Assembly (NCBI GenBank): GCA_965203555.1
Contig: CBDBCY010000004.1
Location: forward strand, 160,001-224,000
Reading direction: 5' to 3'
Length of the DNA: 64,000 nucleotides
Source: Acidimicrobiia bacterium
Lineage (GTDB): Bacteria > Actinomycetota > Acidimicrobiia > Spongiisociales > ZC4RG35
The stretch's first letter is position 1. Each line of letters starts with the position of its first letter. A program made the position numbers and the translations under genes. The notes beneath the pieces are model-generated. The model ran no database searches. It was given only the letters and a program-made list of their open reading frames with translations, and was not told the DNA's origin. Positions 127 to 55,635 of this stretch are shown here, in pieces.

Positions 127-2244
127 GTGGCTGCTGACCGAGGGCATCGTCTCCTGCGCATGCGTCAGGTGCCCCTGAGTCGCACCCGCAATATCGGAAT
201 CATGGCCCACATCGATGCAGGAAAGACCACTCTGACCGAGCGGATTCTTTACTACACCGGTCGCAACTACAAAATCGGGGAGGTCCACGAGGGCGCCGCC
301 ACCATGGATTGGATGGCACAGGAGCAGGAGCGGGGAATCACCATCACCTCTGCCGCCACCACCTGTATCTGGCACGATCACAGCATCAACATCATCGACA
401 CTCCGGGTCATGTCGATTTCACCGTCGAGGTGGAACGTAGTCTTCGAGTCCTGGATGGGGCGGTGGCGGTATTCGACGGGGTGGCGGGAGTGGAACCACA
501 GTCGGAGACGGTGTGGCGGCAGGCCGACCGCTACGAAGTTCCCCGCATCTGCTTCATCAACAAACTCGACCGACTGGGGGCGGACTTCTTCGCCGATGTG
601 GAATCGATCCGCACCCGACTCAACGCAACACCTCTGGTGGTCCAACTGCCCGTGGGTGAGGAGAGTGATTTCCGAGGTGTTCTGGACCTGGTGGAAATGC
701 AGATTCACGAGTGGCGGGGGGACGACGGCAGGCACTGGGACACCGGCGACATCCCCGAATCGATGCAGGACCTGGCTTATGAATACCGGGCGCGGATGTT
801 GGAGCAGGTAGCCGAGGTTGACGAGAAACTCCTGATCAAGTTCCTCGAAGATCTGTACATAACCCCCGACGAGATCCGAACCGCTATCCGTACGGGGGTG
901 CTTCAGCACATGTTCGTGCCGGTGCTTTGTGGTGCGGCCTTCAAGAACAAGGGAGTGCAGCCGCTGCTTGACGCCATTGTCCACTATCTGCCCAGCCCCT
1001 TGGACCTTCCTCCGGTGAAGGGTTTCGCCCCCAAGAATCCGGAACAGGTTCTGGAACGGAAGGCCAATGACGACGAGCCATTTTCGGCTCTCGCCTTCAA
1101 GATCATGAGCGATCCCCACGTCGGCAAGCTCACCTATTTCCGGGTCTATTCGGGCTCGGTCTCCAAGGGCGGCGCGGTGTTCAATACCACCAACGGCAAG
1201 AAGGAGCGCCTGGGACGGCTGCTTCGCATGCATGCCAACCATCGTGAGGATGTCAACATTGTTTACACCGGTGACATCGTGGCGGCGGTGGGATTGCGAC
1301 ACACCACCACCGGCGACACCCTTTCCGGTGTCGGTCACCCCATCAGCCTGGAATCGATGGCCTTTCCCGCGCCGGTTATCTGGGTAGCCATCGAGCCTCG
1401 CACCAGGGTTGACCAGGACAAGTTGTCCGAGTCCCTGCAAAAGCTGTCGGAGGAGGACCCGACCTTTCTGGTGAGAAGTGACGAAGAGACCGGGCAAACC
1501 ATCATCTCGGGAATGGGCGAGCTCCACCTGGAGGTATTGGTGGACCGGCTGATCCGGGAATTCAAGGTCGCGGCCAACATCGGTAAGCCGCAGGTCGCCT
1601 ATCGAGAATCAATCCTGTCGGCCGTAGAGAAAGTGGAAGGCCGTTACGTCCGCCAGAGTGGCGGCCGGGGTCAGTACGGTCATGTCGTCATCGACATCGA
1701 ACCCACCGGTCCCGGAGGAGGTTACGAATTCGTCAACAAGATCAGGGGCGGTCGCGTCCCCCGTGAATACATTCCGGCGGTGGCCGCCGGCATCGGAGAG
1801 GCTCTCGATGGGGGTATCCTGGCGGGCTACCCGGTGGTGGATGTGCGGGTCACCCTGGTTGACGGTTCACATCATGAAGTAGATTCTTCCGAACTGGCCT
1901 TTCGGATAGCCGGTTCCATGGCTGTTCGCGCCGCCACCAACAAGGCGGGGCTGAAACTGCTGGAGCCGGTGATGGAAGTCGAGGTGGTCACTCCCGACGA
2001 GTACATGGGAGACGTGATCGCCGACATTTCCGCTCGCCGGGGCCGTATTGGAGAAACCGATCAGCGGGGATCGGCCCGGCTAATCACCGCCGCCGTACCG
2101 CTGGCCGCAATGTTCGGCTTTGCTACTGATATCCGGTCCAGGACTCAGGGGCGAGCAACGTATTCGATGCAATTCAAGGCTTACCAAGATGTTCCTGACT
2201 CTATTTGTCAGGACATCCTTCATTTGAGAACTGGTAAGTATTAG
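127..2244 (+). CDS. fusA: Elongation factor G
   Basis: [41 protein letters not shown] motifs. Alternative start ATG at 160. Confidence 0.98.
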
Positions 2245-3465
2245 AAATGGGGGTGTTTGGTTGTGGGTAAGGTGAGGTTTGAGCGGGTGAAGCCGCATTT
2301 GAATGTGGGTACTATGGGTCATATTGATCATGGGAAGACTACGTTGACTGCTGCGATTACTAGGGTGTTGTCTGAGCGGGTTGGTGGGGTGAATGTGGTG
2401 ACTGGGTTTGATGATATTGATCGTGCTCCTGAGGAGCGTGAGCGGGGTATTACGATTCAGATTGCGCATGTTGAGTATGAGACTGTTTTGCGTCATTATG
2501 CGCATGTGGATATGCCGGGGCATGCGGATTATATTAAGAATATGATTACGGGGGCGGCTCAGGTGGATGGGGCGGTGTTGGTGGTGTCGGCGGTTGATGG
2601 TCCGATGCCGCAGACTCGTGAGCATGTGTTGTTGGCGCGGCAGGTGGGTGTGCCGCGGATTGTGGTGTTTTTGAATAAGTGTGATTTGGTGGATGATGGT
2701 GAGTTGTTGGATTTGGTGGAGTTGGAGGTTCGGGATTTGTTGACGGAGTATGAGTTTCCGGGTGATGATGTTCCGGTGGTGAGGGGTTCGGCGTTGTTGG
2801 CGTTGGAGGGTGATGTGGTGGCTGGTGATGGGGTTATGGAGTTGATGGATGCGGTTGATGGGTATGTTGATGTGCCGGTTCGGGATGTGGATCGTCCGTT
2901 TTTGATGCCGATTGAGGATGTGTTTTCGATTACTGGTCGGGGTACGGTGGTGACTGGTCGGGTTGAGCAGGGTGTGTTGCGGGTTGGTGAGGCGGTTGAG
3001 GTGGTTGGTTTGCGTGATACGCGTGGGTCGGTGGCTACTGGTGTGGAGATGTTTAGGAAGTTGTTGGATGAGGGTCGGGCTGGTGATAATGTGGGGGTGT
3101 TGTTGCGGGGGGTGGGGAAGTCGGAGGTGGAGCGTGGTCAGGTGTTGGCTGCTCCTGGGTCGATTTTGCCGCATGTGGGTTTTGAGGCGCAGGTGTATGT
3201 GTTGACGAAGGAGGAGGGGGGGAGGCATAATCCGTTTTTTTCGGGTTATCGTCCGCAGTTTTATTTTCGGACTACGGATGTGACGGGTTCGGTGTTGTTG
3301 CCTGTTGGGGTGCAGATGGTGATGCCGGGTGATAATGTGGAGTTGTCGGTGGAGTTGATTGCTCCGATTGCGATGTCGGTGGGGTTGGATTTCGCGATTC
3401 GTGAGGGTGGTCGGACTGTGGGGGCGGGTCGGGTCACCAAGATCACCAAATAACCCCAAACCCAA
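2243..3465 (+). repeat. Direct repeat copy A (tuf with short flanks), matches 38381-39605
   Basis: Same sequence from 'agaaatgggggtgtttggttgtggg' to 'taacccc(cc)aaacccaa'. Sense, antisense and shifted-frame translations in the ORF track are identical over the shared span. Confidence 0.97.
2263..3453 (+). CDS. tuf: Elongation factor Tu, copy 1
   Basis: [40 protein letters not shown] at 2263 matches the usual N-terminus (the ORF track starts at TTG 2257). Confidence 0.98.
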
Positions 3466-3543
3466 GAAGGCAAAGGATTGTGGACAACAACCGGCAAGGG
3501 CAAGTAGAGAATAAGCCGAGCAAGCGAGGACAGTAGAAGAGAC

Positions 3544-3855
3544 ATGAACGGTTCCCATAAGATCCGCATAAAGCTCAAGGCTTATGACCATCAGAGTGTG
3601 GATGAGTCAGCGCGCAAGATCGCTGCTACGGTTACTCGTACCCAGGCCAAAATAAGAGGTCCTGTTCCGTTGCCTACCGAGATCCACAGATACTGCGTTA
3701 TACGCGGACCCCATGTCGATAAAGACTCCCGGGAACACTTCGAGATGCGCATTCATAAGCGGTTGATCGATATCTTGGATCCAACCGCTAAAACGGTTGA
3801 TTCATTGATGCGCCTTGATCTTCCTTCCGGAGTGGAAGTAGAGATAAAGCTGTGA
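3544..3855 (+). CDS. rpsJ: 30S ribosomal protein S10
   Basis: [35 protein letters not shown]. Confidence 0.98.
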
Positions 3856-29903: not shown

Positions 29904-30509
29904 ATGCGGGAACTGGAGGAGTTGGGCGCCCGGGCGAGGGTGTGCACCGACTGCCGGCTGTCCCGAAGCCGCACCAAGGTGGTGTTCGGAGTGGGCCGAC
30001 CTGATGCACAGGTCATGATGGTGGGAGAGGCGCCGGGAAAGAATGAGGACCTCCAGGGCGAACCCTTTGTGGGAGCGGCCGGAAACCTTCTGAACGGGCT
30101 GCTGGCGGAGGTGGGAATGCGCCGGCAGGATGTCTACATCGCCAACGTGCTGAAGTGCCGTCCCCCCAACAATCGCGACCCGCGGCCCGACGAGATATCG
30201 GCCTGCAAGGGGTACTTGCGCCGGCAACTTGATCTGGTGGATCCCGAGGTGGTGATGACCCTGGGGAATTTCGCCACCCAACTTCTGTTACGCACCACCA
30301 CCGGCATCAGCCGGATGCGGGGACGCAGCTACAAATGGTGGAGGGACAAGATCGTGATACCGACTTTCCATCCGGCAGCCGCGCTGCGAGGCGGCGAGCG
30401 GGTGACCAACCAGATCCGTGAAGACTTGGCATTGATGAGATCGGTTCTGGACTCCCTGGACACCGGGGAGGGAATTGAATCCGAACCGGAGCAGTTGGGC
30501 CTGTTCTGA
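29904..30509 (+). CDS. Uracil-DNA glycosylase, family 4 (Fe-S)
   Basis: CTDC, GEAPG, PFVG, KCRPPNNR, HPAA. Confidence 0.93.
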   Translation: MRELEELGARARVCTDCRLSRSRTKVVFGVGRPDAQVMMVGEAPGKNEDLQGEPFVGAAGNLLNGLLAEVGMRRQDVYIANVLKCRPPNNRDPRPDEISACKGYLRRQLDLVDPEVVMTLGNFATQLLLRTTTGISRMRGRSYKWWRDKIVIPTFHPAAALRGGERVTNQIREDLALMRSVLDSLDTGEGIESEPEQLGLF

Positions 30510-38063: not shown

Positions 38064-38145
38064 GCCGGGATACCCAAGCGGCCAAAGGGAGCAGACTGTA
38101 AATCTGCCGGCGATGCCTTCGGAGGTTCAAATCCTTCTCCCGGCA
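38064..38145 (+). tRNA. tRNA-Tyr(GTA)
   Basis: Acceptor GCCGGGA/TCCCGGC, anticodon loop CT-GTA-AA, long variable arm, GGTTCAAATCC. Confidence 0.95.
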
Positions 38146-38169
38146 CCGGCTTTCCCGCAAAGACCAAGC

Positions 38170-38243
38170 GCCCCCTTAGCTCAGACGGCCAGAGCGCCTC
38201 CATGGTAAGGAGGAGGTCTCCGGTTCGAATCCGGAAGGGGGCT
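38170..38243 (+). tRNA. tRNA-Thr(GGT)
   Basis: Acceptor GCCCCCT/AGGGGGC, anticodon arm CCTCC-AT-GGT-AA-GGAGG, GGTTCGAATCC. Confidence 0.95.
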
Positions 38244-38275
38244 CCCCCGTGCGGCCCGCGCCGACTACGGGTAAA

Positions 38276-38349
38276 GGCGGCGTAGCTCAGTTGGTAAGAG
38301 CGCTCGACTCATAATCGAGAGGTCGGCAGTTCAAGTCTGCCCGCCGCTA
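38276..38349 (+). tRNA. tRNA with CAT anticodon (probably elongator Met)
   Basis: Acceptor GGCGGCG/CGCCGCT, CTCGA-CT-CAT-AA-TCGAG, AGTTCAAGTCT. Confidence 0.92.
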
Positions 38350-38380
38350 CATGGAACCAAAGACAGCTATCGATAAATAC

Positions 38381-39605
38381 AGAAATGGGGGTGTTTGGTT
38401 GTGGGTAAGGTGAGGTTTGAGCGGGTGAAGCCGCATTTGAATGTGGGTACTATGGGTCATATTGATCATGGGAAGACTACGTTGACTGCTGCGATTACTA
38501 GGGTGTTGTCTGAGCGGGTTGGTGGGGTGAATGTGGTGACTGGGTTTGATGATATTGATCGTGCTCCTGAGGAGCGTGAGCGGGGTATTACGATTCAGAT
38601 TGCGCATGTTGAGTATGAGACTGTTTTGCGTCATTATGCGCATGTGGATATGCCGGGGCATGCGGATTATATTAAGAATATGATTACGGGGGCGGCTCAG
38701 GTGGATGGGGCGGTGTTGGTGGTGTCGGCGGTTGATGGTCCGATGCCGCAGACTCGTGAGCATGTGTTGTTGGCGCGGCAGGTGGGTGTGCCGCGGATTG
38801 TGGTGTTTTTGAATAAGTGTGATTTGGTGGATGATGGTGAGTTGTTGGATTTGGTGGAGTTGGAGGTTCGGGATTTGTTGACGGAGTATGAGTTTCCGGG
38901 TGATGATGTTCCGGTGGTGAGGGGTTCGGCGTTGTTGGCGTTGGAGGGTGATGTGGTGGCTGGTGATGGGGTTATGGAGTTGATGGATGCGGTTGATGGG
39001 TATGTTGATGTGCCGGTTCGGGATGTGGATCGTCCGTTTTTGATGCCGATTGAGGATGTGTTTTCGATTACTGGTCGGGGTACGGTGGTGACTGGTCGGG
39101 TTGAGCAGGGTGTGTTGCGGGTTGGTGAGGCGGTTGAGGTGGTTGGTTTGCGTGATACGCGTGGGTCGGTGGCTACTGGTGTGGAGATGTTTAGGAAGTT
39201 GTTGGATGAGGGTCGGGCTGGTGATAATGTGGGGGTGTTGTTGCGGGGGGTGGGGAAGTCGGAGGTGGAGCGTGGTCAGGTGTTGGCTGCTCCTGGGTCG
39301 ATTTTGCCGCATGTGGGTTTTGAGGCGCAGGTGTATGTGTTGACGAAGGAGGAGGGGGGGAGGCATAATCCGTTTTTTTCGGGTTATCGTCCGCAGTTTT
39401 ATTTTCGGACTACGGATGTGACGGGTTCGGTGTTGTTGCCTGTTGGGGTGCAGATGGTGATGCCGGGTGATAATGTGGAGTTGTCGGTGGAGTTGATTGC
39501 TCCGATTGCGATGTCGGTGGGGTTGGATTTCGCGATTCGTGAGGGTGGTCGGACTGTGGGGGCGGGTCGGGTCACCAAGATCACCAAATAACCCCCCAAA
39601 CCCAA
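38381..39605 (+). repeat. Direct repeat copy B (tuf with short flanks), matches 2243-3465
   Basis: Offset 36,138 bp; the only difference I could see is a C-run of 6 vs 4 after the stop codon. Confidence 0.97.
38401..39591 (+). CDS. tuf: Elongation factor Tu, copy 2
   Basis: Protein identical to copy 1; tRNA-tuf-rpmG-secE context. Confidence 0.98.
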
Positions 39606-39656
39606 AGACTGACGCCAATAGCGCAAGAAGCCAGGACGTAAGAAAGAAAGCAACCG

Positions 39657-52729: not shown

Positions 52730-52964
52730 TCATCCCCTAGACTTACCTGCAGGCTCCAACCTTCGGTTCTCAGTCTAGGAGCTAGACGAGGTCGAGGGCG
52801 TCCCACTGGCGGTCGGCCAGGCCTTCTTCCATCGCTGGGGTGTGCAAACTGAGCCACTACCCGGCCGAGCAGGGCAGGTATGATATTAGTGTGATTCTTA
52901 GGCTGATGTTATGACTTGTTGTGATGTGTTGCTGGCGCCGCATTTGGGTTCGTTTTGAGGTGAT

Positions 52965-55365
52965 GTGTTGGAGTTGTCTGAGGGCTTGGTGACGGAGGGT
53001 GAAGCCGGTTTGCGGGAACGGCTTTATAGGTTGAGCCGGGCGAGTCTGCGTATTAATGAGAGTCTGGATTTTGATTCGGTGCTTCAGGGTGCTTTGGATT
53101 CGGCTTGTTCGTTGACTGGCGCCCGTTATGGGGTGATGGCTATGTTGGATGGCGGGGGGCGGGTGGGGGACTTTTTGTCGTCGGGATTGAGCGGTGAGCA
53201 GGCCGAACAGCTCTGGCAGACCCCCCAGAGGTGGGAAATATTCGAGCGTTTGGGCCGCGTGTCCGTACCTTTGCGTGTTCCTGACCTGGTGGGCCATGTG
53301 AGGTCTTTGGGGTTTGACGGGTTCCGTCTGCCCTTGGCGGGCGGGTCGGTGTGGCCGTTTTTGGCGTCGCCGATGTTCCATGGTACCGAGCGGGTAGGTA
53401 ATGTCTTTTTGGCCGGGCGGGTGGACGGGGCCGAGTTCAGCGGGGAGGACGAGCAGACTCTGGTGATGTTCGCTTCTCAGGCGGCGTTGGTGATTGCTAA
53501 CGCCCGGCGGCATCTTGAAGAGCGGCGGGCCCGGGCCGCCTTGGAGACGCTGATCGATACTTCTCCGGTGGGTGTGGTGGTGTTCGATGCCGTGTCCGGA
53601 GCGCCTAAGTCTTTCAATCGGGAAGCGCGGAGGATCGCGGACAGCCTGGCGGACTCCGATCAGTCTCCTGAGATGCTCTTGGACGTGATCACCTGCAGGC
53701 GGGCCGATGGGCGGGAGGTTTCCTTGCGGGAGTTTCCGTTGGCCGAGTTGCTGAGCGCGGGGGAGACGCTGCGGGCCGAGGAGATTGTCTTGGCGGTTCC
53801 CGACGGGCGCTGTGTCACGGTGCTGTTAAACGCGACGCCGATCTTCTCCGATGCGGGCGAGGTGGAGTCGGCGGTGGTGACGCTCCAGGACATGGCCGAC
53901 GTGGAGGAGTTGGAGCGCCTACGGGCCGAGTTTTTGGCCATGGTCAGCCACGAGTTGCGGGCGCCCTTGACCTCCATCAAGGGTTCCACTGCCACGGTGC
54001 TGGATTCGCCCGTGGACCTGGACCCGGCCGTGGTCCGCCAGTTTTTCCGTATCATTTCCGAGCAGGCCGATCACATGCACGGCCTGGTGTCCGATCTCCT
54101 GGACGTAGCTCGGATCGAGACGGGCACGCTGGCGGTCGGTCCCGAACCGGCGGAGGTGGCCATGCTGGTGGAGCGGGCGAGGCGTGCTTTCACGGGTGGT
54201 GGGGGCCGGAACGACCTGGCCATCGACATCGAGCCCGGTCTTCCGCTGGTGATGGCGGACCGGCGGCGAATCCTCCAGGTGCTGGTCAACCTGCTGACCA
54301 ACGCGGCCCGCCACTCCCCGCGGCCGTCGGTCATCACGATAACCGCCACCCGCGACGGGACACATGTGGCCGTCTCGGTAGTCGACGAGGGGCGGGGCAT
54401 CCCGGCCGAGAGCCTGCCCGGTTTGTTCCGGAAGTTCTCCGCGGCGAAGTCCGAGGAACCGGGCGGGGACACCGGGCTGGGCCTGGCGATCTGCAGAGGG
54501 ATAGTAGAGGCCCACGGGGGACGCATCTGGGCCGAGAGCGACGGCCCGGACCTCGGCGCCCGTTTCACCTTCACCCTGCCCACAGTGGAACCAACCAGCG
54601 GCGCAACAGCCGGTGCTCGCCCGCCGTCATCGAGGCGCTTGTCCCGCGGGCAGCAAGAGACGGGAGAAGGGGTGCGGGTACTGGCGGTGGACGACGACCC
54701 CAGAGACCTCCGGTACGTCCAGGACACCCTCATCCAGTCGGGATACGCTCCCACGGTAACCGGGGACCCCGAGGAAGCGCTCCGTCTCATGGAAGAGGAC
54801 CGGCCCCGGCTGGTGCTGCTGGACCTCATGCTCCCCGGGACAGACGGCATCAAGCTGATGGGAGAGATCCTGAACACCGCGGACGTGCCGGTCATCTTCC
54901 TCTCCGCCTACGGCAGGGACGACCTCATCGCCGAAGCTCTCAACAAAGGCGCCTCCGACTACGTCCTCAAGCCCTTCTCGCCAACAGAGCTGACAGCAAG
55001 AATCGGAGCGGCCCTCCGCCGCAGCGCCCGTCCCCGAGCCCCTGGAGCCATACCAACTGGGCGACCTGACCATCAACTACCCCGAACGCAGAGTGACCCT
55101 AGCCGACCGGCCCGTGCACCTCCTCCCAATGGAATACCGAATGCTCACCGCGCTCTCGACCAGCGCCGGACGGGTACTCACCTACAAACAACTGCTAAAC
55201 CGAGTGTGGGAGGACAAAGAAAGCCGCGACCTGCGACCCATGCGCACCATTGTCCGCAAACTCCGACAAAAACTAAACGACGACGCCCGCAACCCCACCT
55301 ACATCTTCACCGAACCCCGCGTCGGCTACCGAATGCCAAAAGGAGAGAAAAGAAAAACGCACTGA
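52965..55365 (+). CDS. Soluble hybrid GAF-PAS-histidine kinase-receiver-winged-helix protein; +1 frameshift at ~55028
   Basis: H-box VSHELRAPLT, N-box NLLTNA, G-boxes DEGRGI and GTGLGL, receiver DDD...LLDLMLP...KPF. The KdpE/OmpR-type DNA-binding domain (EYRML...VLTYKQLL..VW...PTYIFTEPRVGY) continues in another frame. Confidence 0.85.
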
Positions 55366-55635
55366 CCCAGTCAGATAACCCTGCGATGAGGTTCTGCTCA
55401 TATTTTGCGGACCGTGGCGGCGAACTTGTCCGCGACTGGGTGCGGGCACTATCCAACCACTCGTCTTCTGTGATCTCTCCACGCTTAGCAGCGCCGGCGA
55501 GAATCCGCCTCGTTGGCCCTGCCGCCGTTCACTCCTGTCTACATGCCTACCAGCATGCAAAGATGGTGTGACACCCCAACCCCACACCCCAACCTGTGAA
55601 AAAGACGCTAGCCGGCCAAGCCTGCGGCAGACATG

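What the first reader, a model, noticed from the sequence alone, without database searches (positions are those of the whole stretch)
2243..3465. tuf is recoded almost entirely into G/T-ending codons, then flips to C/A at the repeat's right edge: candidate repeat-specific polarised mutation or conversion system
Seen: reading by hand, the first 378 codons from 2257 all end in G or T, every Leu is TTG, and there is one TTC at 3391. From 3433 the sequence switches abruptly to gtc acc aag atc acc aaa taa ccccaaacccaa. The skew starts where identity between the two copies starts (2243/38381), and the SD region reads GGGGGTG. Other highly expressed genes here (groEL, rplB, rplL) prefer C/G endings, so translational selection and ordinary replication skew do not explain it. 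Inference: C>T plus A>G on the same strand, limited to a duplicated segment, fits either (a) deamination of DNA held single-stranded during recombination between copies, or (b) biased gene conversion. In (b), a donor strand carrying G/T alleles forms G:T mismatches while A/C alleles form A:C mismatches. Actinobacterial NucS/EndoMS is known to cut G:T much better than A:C, so conversion could ratchet keto bases onto one strand. I know of no named description of this, but I could not search the literature.
Basis: partly seen in the sequence, partly recalled or inferred. Interest (0 to 1): 0.95.

Follow-up and report, generated by a model that had tools for sequence, protein, structure and literature searches.

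The report
Recombination-driven G/T recoding of tuf
The two identical EF-Tu genes of this uncultured actinobacterium have been rewritten almost wholly into codons ending in G or T, apparently by a one-sided copying bias between repeated DNA that also marks every other repeat family in the genome and is strong enough to change an essential protein.

Summary
Of 399 tuf codons, 392 end in G or T. The two copies are 100% identical over 1215 bp and are the top 2 of 11,793 ORFs in the genome. The right edge flips to an A/C-only run.

It is not an artefact. All 11 genus species compared share it, an independent metagenome reproduces the sequence, and a graded form occurs across Actinomycetota.

It goes with concerted evolution. 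In assemblies of 10 contigs or fewer, 40 of 41 two-copy genomes are skewed. The exception has copies only 85% identical. All 4 single-copy genomes are normal.

All four amino-to-keto changes occur, transversions as often as transitions, while G<->T is balanced. This rules out simple deamination. The skew runs 5'->3' along the gene.

Genome-wide, 20 of 22 repeat families are G+T-rich toward the 5' end of each strand.

Best reading (about 0.5): strand-polar biased gene conversion. Heteroduplexes with G/T-only mismatches, the NucS substrate set, are rejected, so keto alleles on the invading 3' strand survive.

Main caveat: MutS-bearing, NucS-less Acidobacteriota show a weaker, G-dominated version.

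My literature searches found no description of this.

The parts
127..2244 (+). EF-G-like gene (fusA) upstream of copy 1, with ordinary codon use. Used as the within-genome control.
   Evidence: ORF. Third letters A .11, C .39, G .33, T .18. Named by its position and its GTPase similarity. Not tested against Pfam.
2243..3457 (+). Repeat copy 1 (tufA position): the segment identical to copy 2.
   Evidence: 0 differences over 1215 bp. The flanks are unrelated.
2248..2262 (+). Keto-only leader holding the Shine-Dalgarno-like GGGGGTG (2249-2255). In other families this site reads AGGAGG-like and differs between the two copies.
2263..3453 (+). tuf copy 1 (EF-Tu), GTG start, 396 aa plus stop.
   Evidence: Pfam GTP_EFTU, GTP_EFTU_D2 and GTP_EFTU_D3. 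Codon counts.
3433..3465 (+). Amino (A/C) flip: the last 6 codons, the stop and a 12-nt A/C-only run (3454-3465).
2080..3591 (-). Codon-aligned antisense ORF of 503 aa, read as a by-product. Without NNA codons the sense codons TTA, CTA and TCA are absent, so the reverse frame has no stops.
   Evidence: and frame arithmetic from the coordinates. No evidence that it codes.
3544..3855 (+). Ribosomal protein S10-like gene (rpsJ) downstream of copy 1, with ordinary codon use.
   Evidence: Named by position and by its N-terminal sequence. Not tested against Pfam.
38064..38350 (+). tRNA-Tyr(GTA), tRNA-Thr(GGT) and tRNA-Met(CAT) directly upstream of copy 2 (a tufB-type context).
   Evidence: ARAGORN on the genome, C4:198064-198350.
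38381..39595 (+). Repeat copy 2 (tufB position). The tuf CDS is 38401-39591.
39571..39606 (+). Amino flip of copy 2: the last 6 codons, the stop and a 15-nt A/C-only run.

Best explanation
The two tuf genes homogenise each other by gene conversion, and that conversion is biased by strand and by mismatch type.

Proposed steps:
1. When one copy is damaged, a 3'-ended single strand from it pairs with the other copy.
2. If the heteroduplex holds a mismatch made only of G and T (G/T, G/G, T/T), it is recognised and the exchange is rejected. This is the substrate set of the NucS/EndoMS nuclease, which this genome has in place of MutS.
3. Mismatches made of A and C pass.
4. So a copy carrying G or T on the invading strand resists being overwritten, and a copy carrying A or C is overwritten.
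5. Keto alleles therefore spread on the strand that invades.

Why tuf is recoded almost end to end: tuf runs with the replication fork, so most invading ends would be sense-strand 3' tails reaching back from the break toward the 5' end of the gene. That recodes nearly the whole sense strand to G/T, most strongly at the 5' end. Only the 3' edge is left to the opposite (A/C) drive from antisense tails.

Why other repeats look different: in dispersed repeats, which lie in both orientations, both kinds of tail act. Each strand then becomes G+T-rich toward its 5' end.

Shown: the pattern, its link to concerted evolution, its polarity, its generality among repeats, and the gene content (nucS present, mutS not found).

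Inferred: heteroduplex rejection as the acting step, NucS as the agent, and fork collapse as the source of the asymmetry.

The broader claim, that a recombination-linked, strand-polar process confined to repeats causes the skew, I hold at about 0.75-0.8. The confidence given here is for the mismatch-biased conversion mechanism.
For: 1. Link to concerted evolution.
- In assemblies of 10 contigs or fewer within the order sample, 40 of 41 genomes with two tuf matches have GT3 of at least 0.70. The exception, G094, has copies only 85% identical. All 4 single-match genomes have 0.42-0.51.
- A complete Ca. Poriferisocius chromosome has a single copy at 0.38.
- I compared both copies in 30 Actinomycetota genomes. 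28 pairs are at least 98.1% identical, and 27 of those have GT3 of at least 0.69. The 2 diverged pairs (85-87% identical) have 0.48-0.49.
- Selection caveat: 8 of the 30 were picked with a skew-specific pattern, 4 as examples of skew, and 2 because they were normal.
- Within genus g17, G052 is normal with diverged copies, while G032, G061, G162 and G303 are skewed.

2. Spectrum at four-fold sites, from less to more skewed relatives, 13 pairs.
- Toward keto: C>G 314, C>T 283, A>G 54, A>T 28.
- The reverse: G>C 39, T>C 23, G>A 1, T>A 1.
- Within a class: G>T 216 against T>G 163, and C>A 14 against A>C 14.
- This is the partition expected from G/T, G/G, T/T recognition (PMC6159521 abstract).
- In M. 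smegmatis, G-T and G-G mispairs are rejected, while C-C, A-A, G-A, A-G, C-A and A-C pass (PMC11551744, Results part 1).
- Loss of NucS raises homeologous recombination about 10-fold at 90% identity (PMC8228993, passages).

3. Polarity.
- In genes with GT3 of 0.68-0.80, GT3 across 12 bins falls from 0.99 to 0.21. Normal genes are flat near 0.45.
- The last bin lies below the normal 0.39, and the region after the stop is A/C-only.

4. Generality within this genome.
- Repeats cover 5.8% of the genome but 70 of 110 windows with |G+T - 0.5| of at least 0.16.
- 20 of 22 repeat families have left-third minus right-third G+T above 0. 12 exceed the 99th percentile of 5000 random segments (mean 0.000, sd 0.048). 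All 9 families with at least 3 copies score 0.13-0.28.
- The six multi-copy families I scanned against Pfam carry unrelated genes: DUF222+HNH, serpin, rve, DDE_Tnp_1, IS110, DDE_3.
- Four E. coli K-12 IS elements give +0.05, +0.055, +0.04 and -0.10.

5. Direction. GC skew puts tuf on the leading strand. Three co-directional genes with internal tandem repeats are keto-rich on the sense strand.

6. Strength.
- Against the consensus of normal relatives, second codon positions show 37 amino-to-keto changes and 3 the other way. Val rises from 43 to 66 and Glu falls from 42 to 29.
- The start codon ATG has become GTG, and GGAGG has become GGGGG.

7. Gene content. nucS is present, and no MutS_V hit was found.

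8. Variation now.
- Among 10 species of the genus, 84 of 96 variable synonymous tuf sites are G/T. fusA varies mainly C/T (67) and A/G (44).
- Related strains seen in public runs differ mostly by G<->T.
Against: 1. NucS is not shown to be needed.
- Four Acidobacteriota genomes have MutS and only weak partial NucS_C hits or none.
- Their tuf pairs are at least 99.7% identical, with GT3 of 0.75-0.83, against fusA at 0.47-0.59 and ribosomal protein genes at 0.45-0.61.
- That skew is mostly G (G3 0.58-0.68, T3 0.09-0.20) and has little gradient.
- My explanation for it rests on recall: MutS recognises G/G but not C/C.

2. A tuf pair can be identical without skew: G024 at 0.567, an Acidobacteriaceae strain at 0.596, and a Pseudomonas at 0.52.

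3. The attempted natural knock-out failed. No NucS hit was found in G024, but none was found in its congeners G707 and G708 either, and those are skewed (0.81 and 0.68). These assemblies are 72-85% complete.

4. In Salmonella, tuf conversion starts uniformly and runs both ways (PMC5485169 abstract). The one-sided polarity here needs an extra assumption.

5. Short-patch NucS repair that restores the template strand (PMC11551744) gives the observed sign only if the incoming strand is antisense. Rejection of the whole exchange gives it if the incoming strand is sense. I cannot tell which applies.

6. C>G is as frequent as C>T although C>G mutations are normally rarer. This needs an added preference for G.

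7. Related genomes are not independent. The protein tree is distorted by the composition itself.
Confidence: 0.5

Rival explanations
1. Damage to single-stranded recombination tails. During exchange between copies the resected 3' tails stay single-stranded. Their C and A are deaminated or lost. Bypass then gives C>T, C>G and A>G on that strand.
For: - It predicts the same strand polarity around breaks and the same mirror symmetry in repeats.
- Strand-coordinated clusters from damaged single-stranded DNA at resected breaks are known in yeast and in cancers. I saw PMC6786661 and PMC3521656 as search listings with abstract starts only.
- Three UDG-family genes are present.
Against: - Resection also happens in repair from the sister chromosome, so single-copy genes should be hit too. 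They are not.
- A>T and the equal share of C>G are not what deamination gives.
- Synonymous divergence of tuf within the genus is 0.107, lower than fusA at 0.357. There is no sign of general hypermutation.
- Holding third positions at 98-99% keto would need a 50-100-fold excess of one mutation direction (my estimate).
Confidence: 0.17
2. Selection on the tuf messenger RNA for few A and C. Possible benefits are weak self-pairing, escape from a C-dependent RNase E or from Rho loading, or escape from toxin nucleases. On this reading the C/A-rich tail acts as a Rho or processing site.
For: - The predicted folding energy is weaker: -0.31 to -0.32 kcal/mol per nt, against -0.40 to -0.48 in normal relatives.
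- A C-poor body followed by a C-rich tail resembles a Rho-dependent layout. The C preference of actinobacterial RNase E and of Rho is recalled, not checked here.
- RNA libraries hold the gene.
Against: - Single-copy tuf genes of close relatives, which should be as highly expressed, are normal.
- Two diverged copies are also normal.
- fusA and the ribosomal protein genes are normal.
- The weaker GTG start and the GGGGG Shine-Dalgarno do not suggest selection for expression.
- It does not explain the polarity in transposase, HNH and serpin repeat families.
- It does not explain a 1-kb gradient.
Confidence: 0.08
3. Transcription- or replication-linked mutational asymmetry acting on a very highly expressed leading-strand gene.
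For: - tuf lies on the leading strand, and the genome has a mild keto excess there, 0.51-0.54.
- The coding strand is the one enriched.
Against: - It would affect the whole transcript and other highly expressed genes. The borders are instead sharp, the 3' end flips, and fusA in the same operon is normal.
- Transversions are as common as transitions.
- It is absent from single-copy relatives.
Confidence: 0.03
4. A recoded tuf allele arose once and spread by horizontal transfer, replacing the resident copies. The gradients would be mosaics of recoded and resident sequence.
For: In the protein tree the extreme genus clusters with family f10 and not with its own family.
Against: - That clustering is what convergent amino-acid change would produce.
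- Otherwise the genes group by family, with skewed and normal states interleaved.
- The gradients are gradual, not stepwise.
- States range from 0.54 to 0.84 within one genus.
- Transfer does not explain the repeat-wide polarity.
Confidence: 0.03

Closest known systems
Concerted evolution of tufA/tufB by gene conversion (Salmonella, E. coli; 29 orders in 6 phyla)
   Same: - Two tuf genes in different contexts (after fusA; after tRNA genes) are kept identical within a genome while diverging between species.
- Identity is limited to the gene.
- Sources: PMC6053082 (passages); PMC5485169 (abstract).
   Different: - Neither paper, as far as I read them, reports a compositional consequence.
- In Salmonella conversion is described as starting uniformly and running both ways. 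Here the footprint is polar and strand-specific.
- A Pseudomonas pair has GT3 of 0.52.
GC-biased gene conversion
   Same: A non-adaptive drive tied to recombination and heteroduplex repair. It can fix alleles against selection.
   Different: - gBGC favours G and C alike on both strands (recalled).
- Here C is removed and T is gained on one strand. The alphabet is keto against amino, and it depends on strand and on position.
NucS/EndoMS non-canonical mismatch repair and its barrier to homeologous recombination
   Same: - The enzyme's substrate set (G/T, G/G, T/T) is exactly the class boundary of the bias.
- nucS is present and mutS was not found.
- NucS limits recombination between diverged sequences.
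   Different: - No paper I saw links NucS to a compositional drive in repeats.
- A weaker form occurs without NucS.
Strand-coordinated mutation clusters in resected single-stranded DNA (yeast, cancers)
   Same: The affected strand switches on either side of a break, giving a mirror-image polarity.
   Different: - Those are mutation bursts from base damage. I saw them as search listings only.
- Here the pattern is an evolutionary steady state confined to repeats, and it includes A>T.
Repeat-induced point mutation (RIP) of fungi
   Same: A process that marks duplicated DNA specifically.
   Different: - RIP makes C>T on both strands and destroys genes (recalled).
- Here the genes stay intact, the change is strand-polar, and it includes transversions.

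Membership tests
EF-Tu (tuf) | The three EF-Tu domains in order | tested here: met
   GTP_EFTU 1.4e-60, GTP_EFTU_D2 9.7e-18, GTP_EFTU_D3 4.4e-35.
EF-Tu (tuf) | An intact reading frame that is conserved across relatives | tested here: met
   No stops. 94-98% protein identity within the genus and 77-85% within the order.
Concerted evolution of tufA/tufB | Paralogues are closer within a genome than orthologues are between species | tested here: met
   0-6 differences within genomes of the genus, against a mean synonymous third-position difference of 0.107 between species.
Concerted evolution of tufA/tufB | Identity confined to the gene, with unrelated and conserved flanks | tested here: met
   Identity runs 2243-3457 only. 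One copy follows fusA and the other follows tRNA genes.
GC-biased gene conversion | G and C are both favoured, symmetrically on the two strands | tested here: not met
   C3 falls from about 0.5 to 0.01 while T3 rises to 0.41.
NucS-dependent mismatch-biased conversion | nucS present and the canonical mutS absent | tested here: met
   NucS_C 2.3e-34. No MutS_V hit in a genome that is 95% complete.
NucS-dependent mismatch-biased conversion | The bias follows the G/T, G/G, T/T class boundary. All four amino-to-keto changes are favoured, and changes within a class are neutral. | tested here: met
   Counts. The within-genus variation is G/T.
NucS-dependent mismatch-biased conversion | The bias depends on NucS | tested here: inconclusive
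   Acidobacteriota without NucS show a weaker, G-dominated skew. The comparison in genus g9 is uninformative because those assemblies are 72-85% complete.
NucS-dependent mismatch-biased conversion | Rejection or repair of keto-only mismatches in recombination intermediates between the copies | not testable with these tools
   Needs genetics or biochemistry.
Transcription- or replication-associated strand asymmetry | Affects the whole transcription unit and other highly expressed leading-strand genes, mainly through transitions | tested here: not met
   fusA and the ribosomal protein genes are normal, the borders are sharp, and transversions are equally common.
Fungal RIP | C>T on both strands of duplicated DNA, with loss of the gene | tested here: not met
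   The pattern is strand-polar, includes C>G and A>T, and the gene is intact.

The most novel reading that the evidence does not exclude
A general rule of genome evolution: the mismatch alphabet of a cell's repair system turns recombination between any repeated sequences into a strand-polar compositional drive.

- With NucS, which sees only G/T, G/G and T/T, every repeat becomes G+T-rich toward the 5' end of each strand.
- Co-directional direct repeats such as tufA/tufB are recoded end to end, even at the cost of amino-acid changes in an essential protein, a weaker start codon and a weaker ribosome-binding site.
- With MutS, which misses C/C, the drive would be mainly toward G.

If this holds, repeat composition would record the polarity of strand invasion and the direction of fork movement.
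Probability: 0.35. Interest if true: 0.95.

Novelty: new variant of a known kind. Interest (0 to 1): 0.88.

Why it matters
- It would be a clear bacterial case of a recombination-linked drive overriding selection on one of the most conserved and most highly expressed genes. Codon choice, about 40 second-position changes, the start codon and the ribosome-binding site are all affected.
- It would give NucS-type repair, whose action on recombination intermediates is poorly known, a visible genomic footprint. It also suggests a simple assay: allele transfer between engineered repeats with and without nucS.
- It bears on tuf as a phylogenetic marker. Convergent amino-acid change pulled unrelated lineages together in my tree.
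- It bears on genome binning and completeness. tuf was found in only 144 of 301 genomes of the order.
- It bears on how codon bias is interpreted.

Tried and rejected
Ideas tested and dropped:
- tRNA supply. The 47 tRNA genes form an ordinary GNN/CNN/UNN set, so they do not explain NNT and NNG use.
- Reverse-transcriptase-mediated copying of edited mRNA. No RVT_1 hit in the genome.
- The 503-aa antisense ORF as the cause. It is codon-aligned and is open simply because NNA codons are absent.
- A generic skew of whole repeats. Whole-element G+T of the repeat families is 0.43-0.58. Only the end-to-end polarity shows the effect.
- NucS loss in G024 as a natural knock-out. Uninformative.
- Acidobacteriota as a negative control for the skew-specific pattern. 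It was not negative: 15 of 301 genomes hit. I followed this up.

Limits of what was done:
- The protein tree could not be rooted, and the composition distorts it. I made no ancestral reconstruction.
- Pairing between the 5' and 3' ends of the mRNA was considered by eye only and not computed.
- Parts of the window without contig cover say nothing.
- RNA libraries holding tuf contigs do not prove transcription.

Tools not used: structure prediction, fold search, complex prediction, the search for homologous proteins, the search of protein representatives and the atlas. The question was about DNA composition.

Literature:
- None of the eight that ran on this question returned a paper describing keto-biased recoding of tuf or 5'-keto polarity of repeats.
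- The library lacks most subscription journals, and supplements were closed.
- Supplementary tables of PMC6053082 (the tuf species list) and PMC6159521 (the mutation spectra) could bear on these claims. I did not see them.

Unpublished genomes:
- G021 supplies one normal single-match tuf (L020).
- G532 is one of the 37 pattern hits.
- G739 and G764 are two of the 15 Acidobacteriota hits.
- G179, G249 and G033 enter only the tallies.


Full report
**What is there.**
- The window carries the classic two-tuf layout. Copy 1 lies between an EF-G-like gene and an S10-like gene. Copy 2 lies behind tRNA-Tyr, tRNA-Thr and tRNA-Met.
- The protein has the three EF-Tu domains.
- The copies are identical over 2243-3457 = 38381-39595, and their flanks are unrelated.
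- Reading from 2257, 392 of 399 codons end in G or T. Every one of the 34 Leu codons is TTG.
- The exceptions are TTC at 3391 and the last codons from 3433. A 12-nt A/C-only run follows the stop.
- By alignment the start is GTG at 2263, preceded by GGGGGTG. Other families have ATG and an AGGAGG-like site there.

**Is it more than chance, and is it real?**
- The two copies are the top 2 of 11,793 ORFs for G/T at third positions: 0.98, against a mean of 0.49, an sd of 0.064 and a next-best value of 0.83. They are also the top 600-nt windows in the genome.
- fusA and the ribosomal protein genes next door are ordinary.
- The genome is a 3.4-Mb, 62% G+C assembly of an uncultured Acidimicrobiia bacterium.
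- All 11 species of the genus for which I compared both copies have GT3 of 0.975-0.99.
- An independent sponge-metagenome run holds contigs identical to window 1900-3800. They branch exactly at the repeat borders. Related strains in other runs differ almost only by G<->T. Two RNA libraries hold the gene.
- It is not an assembly artefact.

**Distribution.**
- tuf was found in 144 of 301 sampled genomes of the order. The gaps probably reflect the repeat failing to assemble.
- I computed GT3 for 110 genes. The values are bimodal: 0.39-0.57 or 0.68-0.99. Both states occur within families f1, f2, f10, f11 and f12.
- In assemblies of 10 contigs or fewer, 40 of 41 two-match genomes are skewed. The exception, G094, has copies only 85% identical, as does G052. 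All 4 single-match genomes are normal.
- A complete Ca. Poriferisocius chromosome has one normal copy.
- A skew-specific 38-mer hit 37 of 401 sampled Actinomycetota genomes, mostly twice per genome, including other classes. The reversed control pattern hit none.
- Ten such genomes have tuf GT3 of 0.69-0.91. In the six of them where fusA was measured it is 0.41-0.49.
- Skew therefore goes with two copies that are being homogenised. It does not go with tuf as such.

**What kind of change.**
- From less to more skewed relatives, at four-fold sites: C>G 314, C>T 283, A>G 54, A>T 28.
- The reverse changes number 39, 23, 1 and 1.
- G<->T (216 against 163) and A<->C (14 against 14) are balanced.
- So the rule is amino (A, C) to keto (G, T), with transversions included. 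Plain deamination cannot give this.
- Within the genus, 84 of 96 variable synonymous tuf sites are G/T. fusA varies mainly by transitions and is 3.3 times more diverged.
- Between the near-identical copies of 11 Actinomycetota genomes, 45 of 56 differences are keto/amino.
- The drive reaches the protein. Second codon positions show 37 amino-to-keto changes and 3 the other way. Val, Gly and Leu rise, while Glu, Lys, Thr, Ala and Ile fall.

**Polarity.**
- In intermediate genes the 5' part is fully G/T-ending and the 3' part is not. For GT3 of 0.68-0.80, twelve bins run 0.99, 0.96, 0.83, 0.92, 0.81, 0.85, 0.76, 0.76, 0.64, 0.62, 0.53, 0.21. Normal genes are flat near 0.45.
- In this genus only the last 5-6 codons escape. 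They, and the first 15 nt after the stop, are A/C-rich (0.75 and 0.87). The actual sequences differ between species.
- In four species the two copies differ only or mainly in these last codons, which marks the edge of the converted tract.

**The rest of the genome.**
- Repeats cover 5.8% of the genome but 64% of the strongly skewed windows.
- Each dispersed repeat family is G+T-rich at one end and A+C-rich at the other. This pattern is unchanged by reverse complementation, so each strand is keto-rich toward its own 5' end.
- 20 of 22 families have a positive end-to-end difference. 12 lie beyond the 99th percentile of random segments. All 9 families with three or more copies score 0.13-0.28.
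- The six multi-copy families I scanned against Pfam carry unrelated genes.
- Four E. coli K-12 IS elements show no such consistent polarity.
- Three co-directional genes with internal tandem repeats are keto-rich on the sense strand throughout.

**Mechanism.**
- The genome has nucS and no detectable mutS.
- NucS cleaves only G/T, G/G and T/T (PMC6159521, abstract).
- In M. smegmatis, such mispairs are rejected while C-C, A-A, G-A, A-G, C-A and A-C pass (PMC11551744, Results part 1).
- NucS also suppresses recombination between diverged sequences (PMC8228993, passages).
- Suppose a 3' tail from one copy invades the other, and keto-only mismatches abort the exchange. Then a copy with a keto allele on the invading strand cannot be overwritten by an amino allele, while the reverse transfer passes.
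- This gives all four observed directions, neutrality within each class, and keto enrichment of each strand toward its 5' end.
- tuf lies on the leading strand. One-ended breaks at co-directional forks would give mostly sense-strand tails. That fits a keto sense strand, a 5'->3' gradient and an amino-rich 3' edge.
- These steps are inferred.

**Against it.**
- Four Acidobacteriota genomes with MutS and no true NucS have identical tuf pairs with GT3 of 0.75-0.83. Their fusA values are 0.47-0.59 and their ribosomal protein genes 0.45-0.61. The excess is mostly G. So either the principle is wider than NucS, or another cause acts there.
- Some identical pairs are not skewed: G024, an Acidobacteriaceae strain and a Pseudomonas.
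- Damage to single-stranded recombination tails predicts the same polarity and remains the main rival.
- Selection on the mRNA is unlikely given the normal single-copy relatives and the polarity of the other repeat families.

**Novelty.**
- Concerted evolution of tuf is known (PMC6053082, PMC5485169).
- My searches found no description of the recoding, of its polarity, or of the repeat-wide footprint.

Noticed in passing
G000 C4:2036300-2038603 (+), C4:1196610-1198841 (-), C4:2313799-2315982 (+); outside the window: Three lipoprotein-like genes of 727-767 codons. Each holds two internal tandem repeats of 0.9-1.0 kb that are 96-100% identical. GT3 is 0.72-0.75 on the sense strand, and all three run with the replication fork.
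   Followed up: partly
G000, 11 loci, e.g. C4:1132436-1133863; outside the window: A serpin gene family in 11 repeat copies in a 3.4-Mb genome (Pfam Serpin 1.7e-68). It shows the same end-to-end G+T polarity as the transposase families.
   Followed up: partly
G000 C4:628250-628327 (-); outside the window: ARAGORN calls a tRNA-His with anticodon ATG beside the normal tRNA-His(GTG). It may be a miscall or an unusual tRNA.
   Followed up: no
window 52801-53600: A non-repeat stretch with G+T of 0.69, among the genome's outliers. It covers an intergenic region and the 5' part of a long histidine-kinase/response-regulator-like ORF (52965-55571). Unexplained.
   Followed up: partly
Order-level genome sample: tuf, an essential gene, was found at E<=1e-100 in only 144 of 301 genomes. 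In fragmented assemblies it often sits at a contig end. The identical pair seems to break short-read assemblies, so marker-based completeness may be affected.
   Followed up: partly
G000 contig C3:654-20716 against C4:2095529-2116094: A 20-kb stretch of contig C3 is 95-98% identical to part of C4 and shows no polarity. It may be a strain variant or haplotig and not a true repeat.
   Followed up: no
Loci L268-L274 (genomes G706-G709, genus g9): The second tuf copy appears split across frames or carries stops in assemblies of 10-30 contigs that are only 72-81% complete. This looks like indel errors in long-read assemblies, not real pseudogenes.
   Followed up: no
window 29985-30401 (+): A UDG-family (uracil-DNA glycosylase superfamily) gene lies between the two tuf copies. 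It is one of three in the genome.
   Followed up: no
Locus pair L013/L127 (G024): Five of the six differences between this genome's two unskewed tuf copies are G/C transversions at third positions. That mutation class is usually rare.
   Followed up: no
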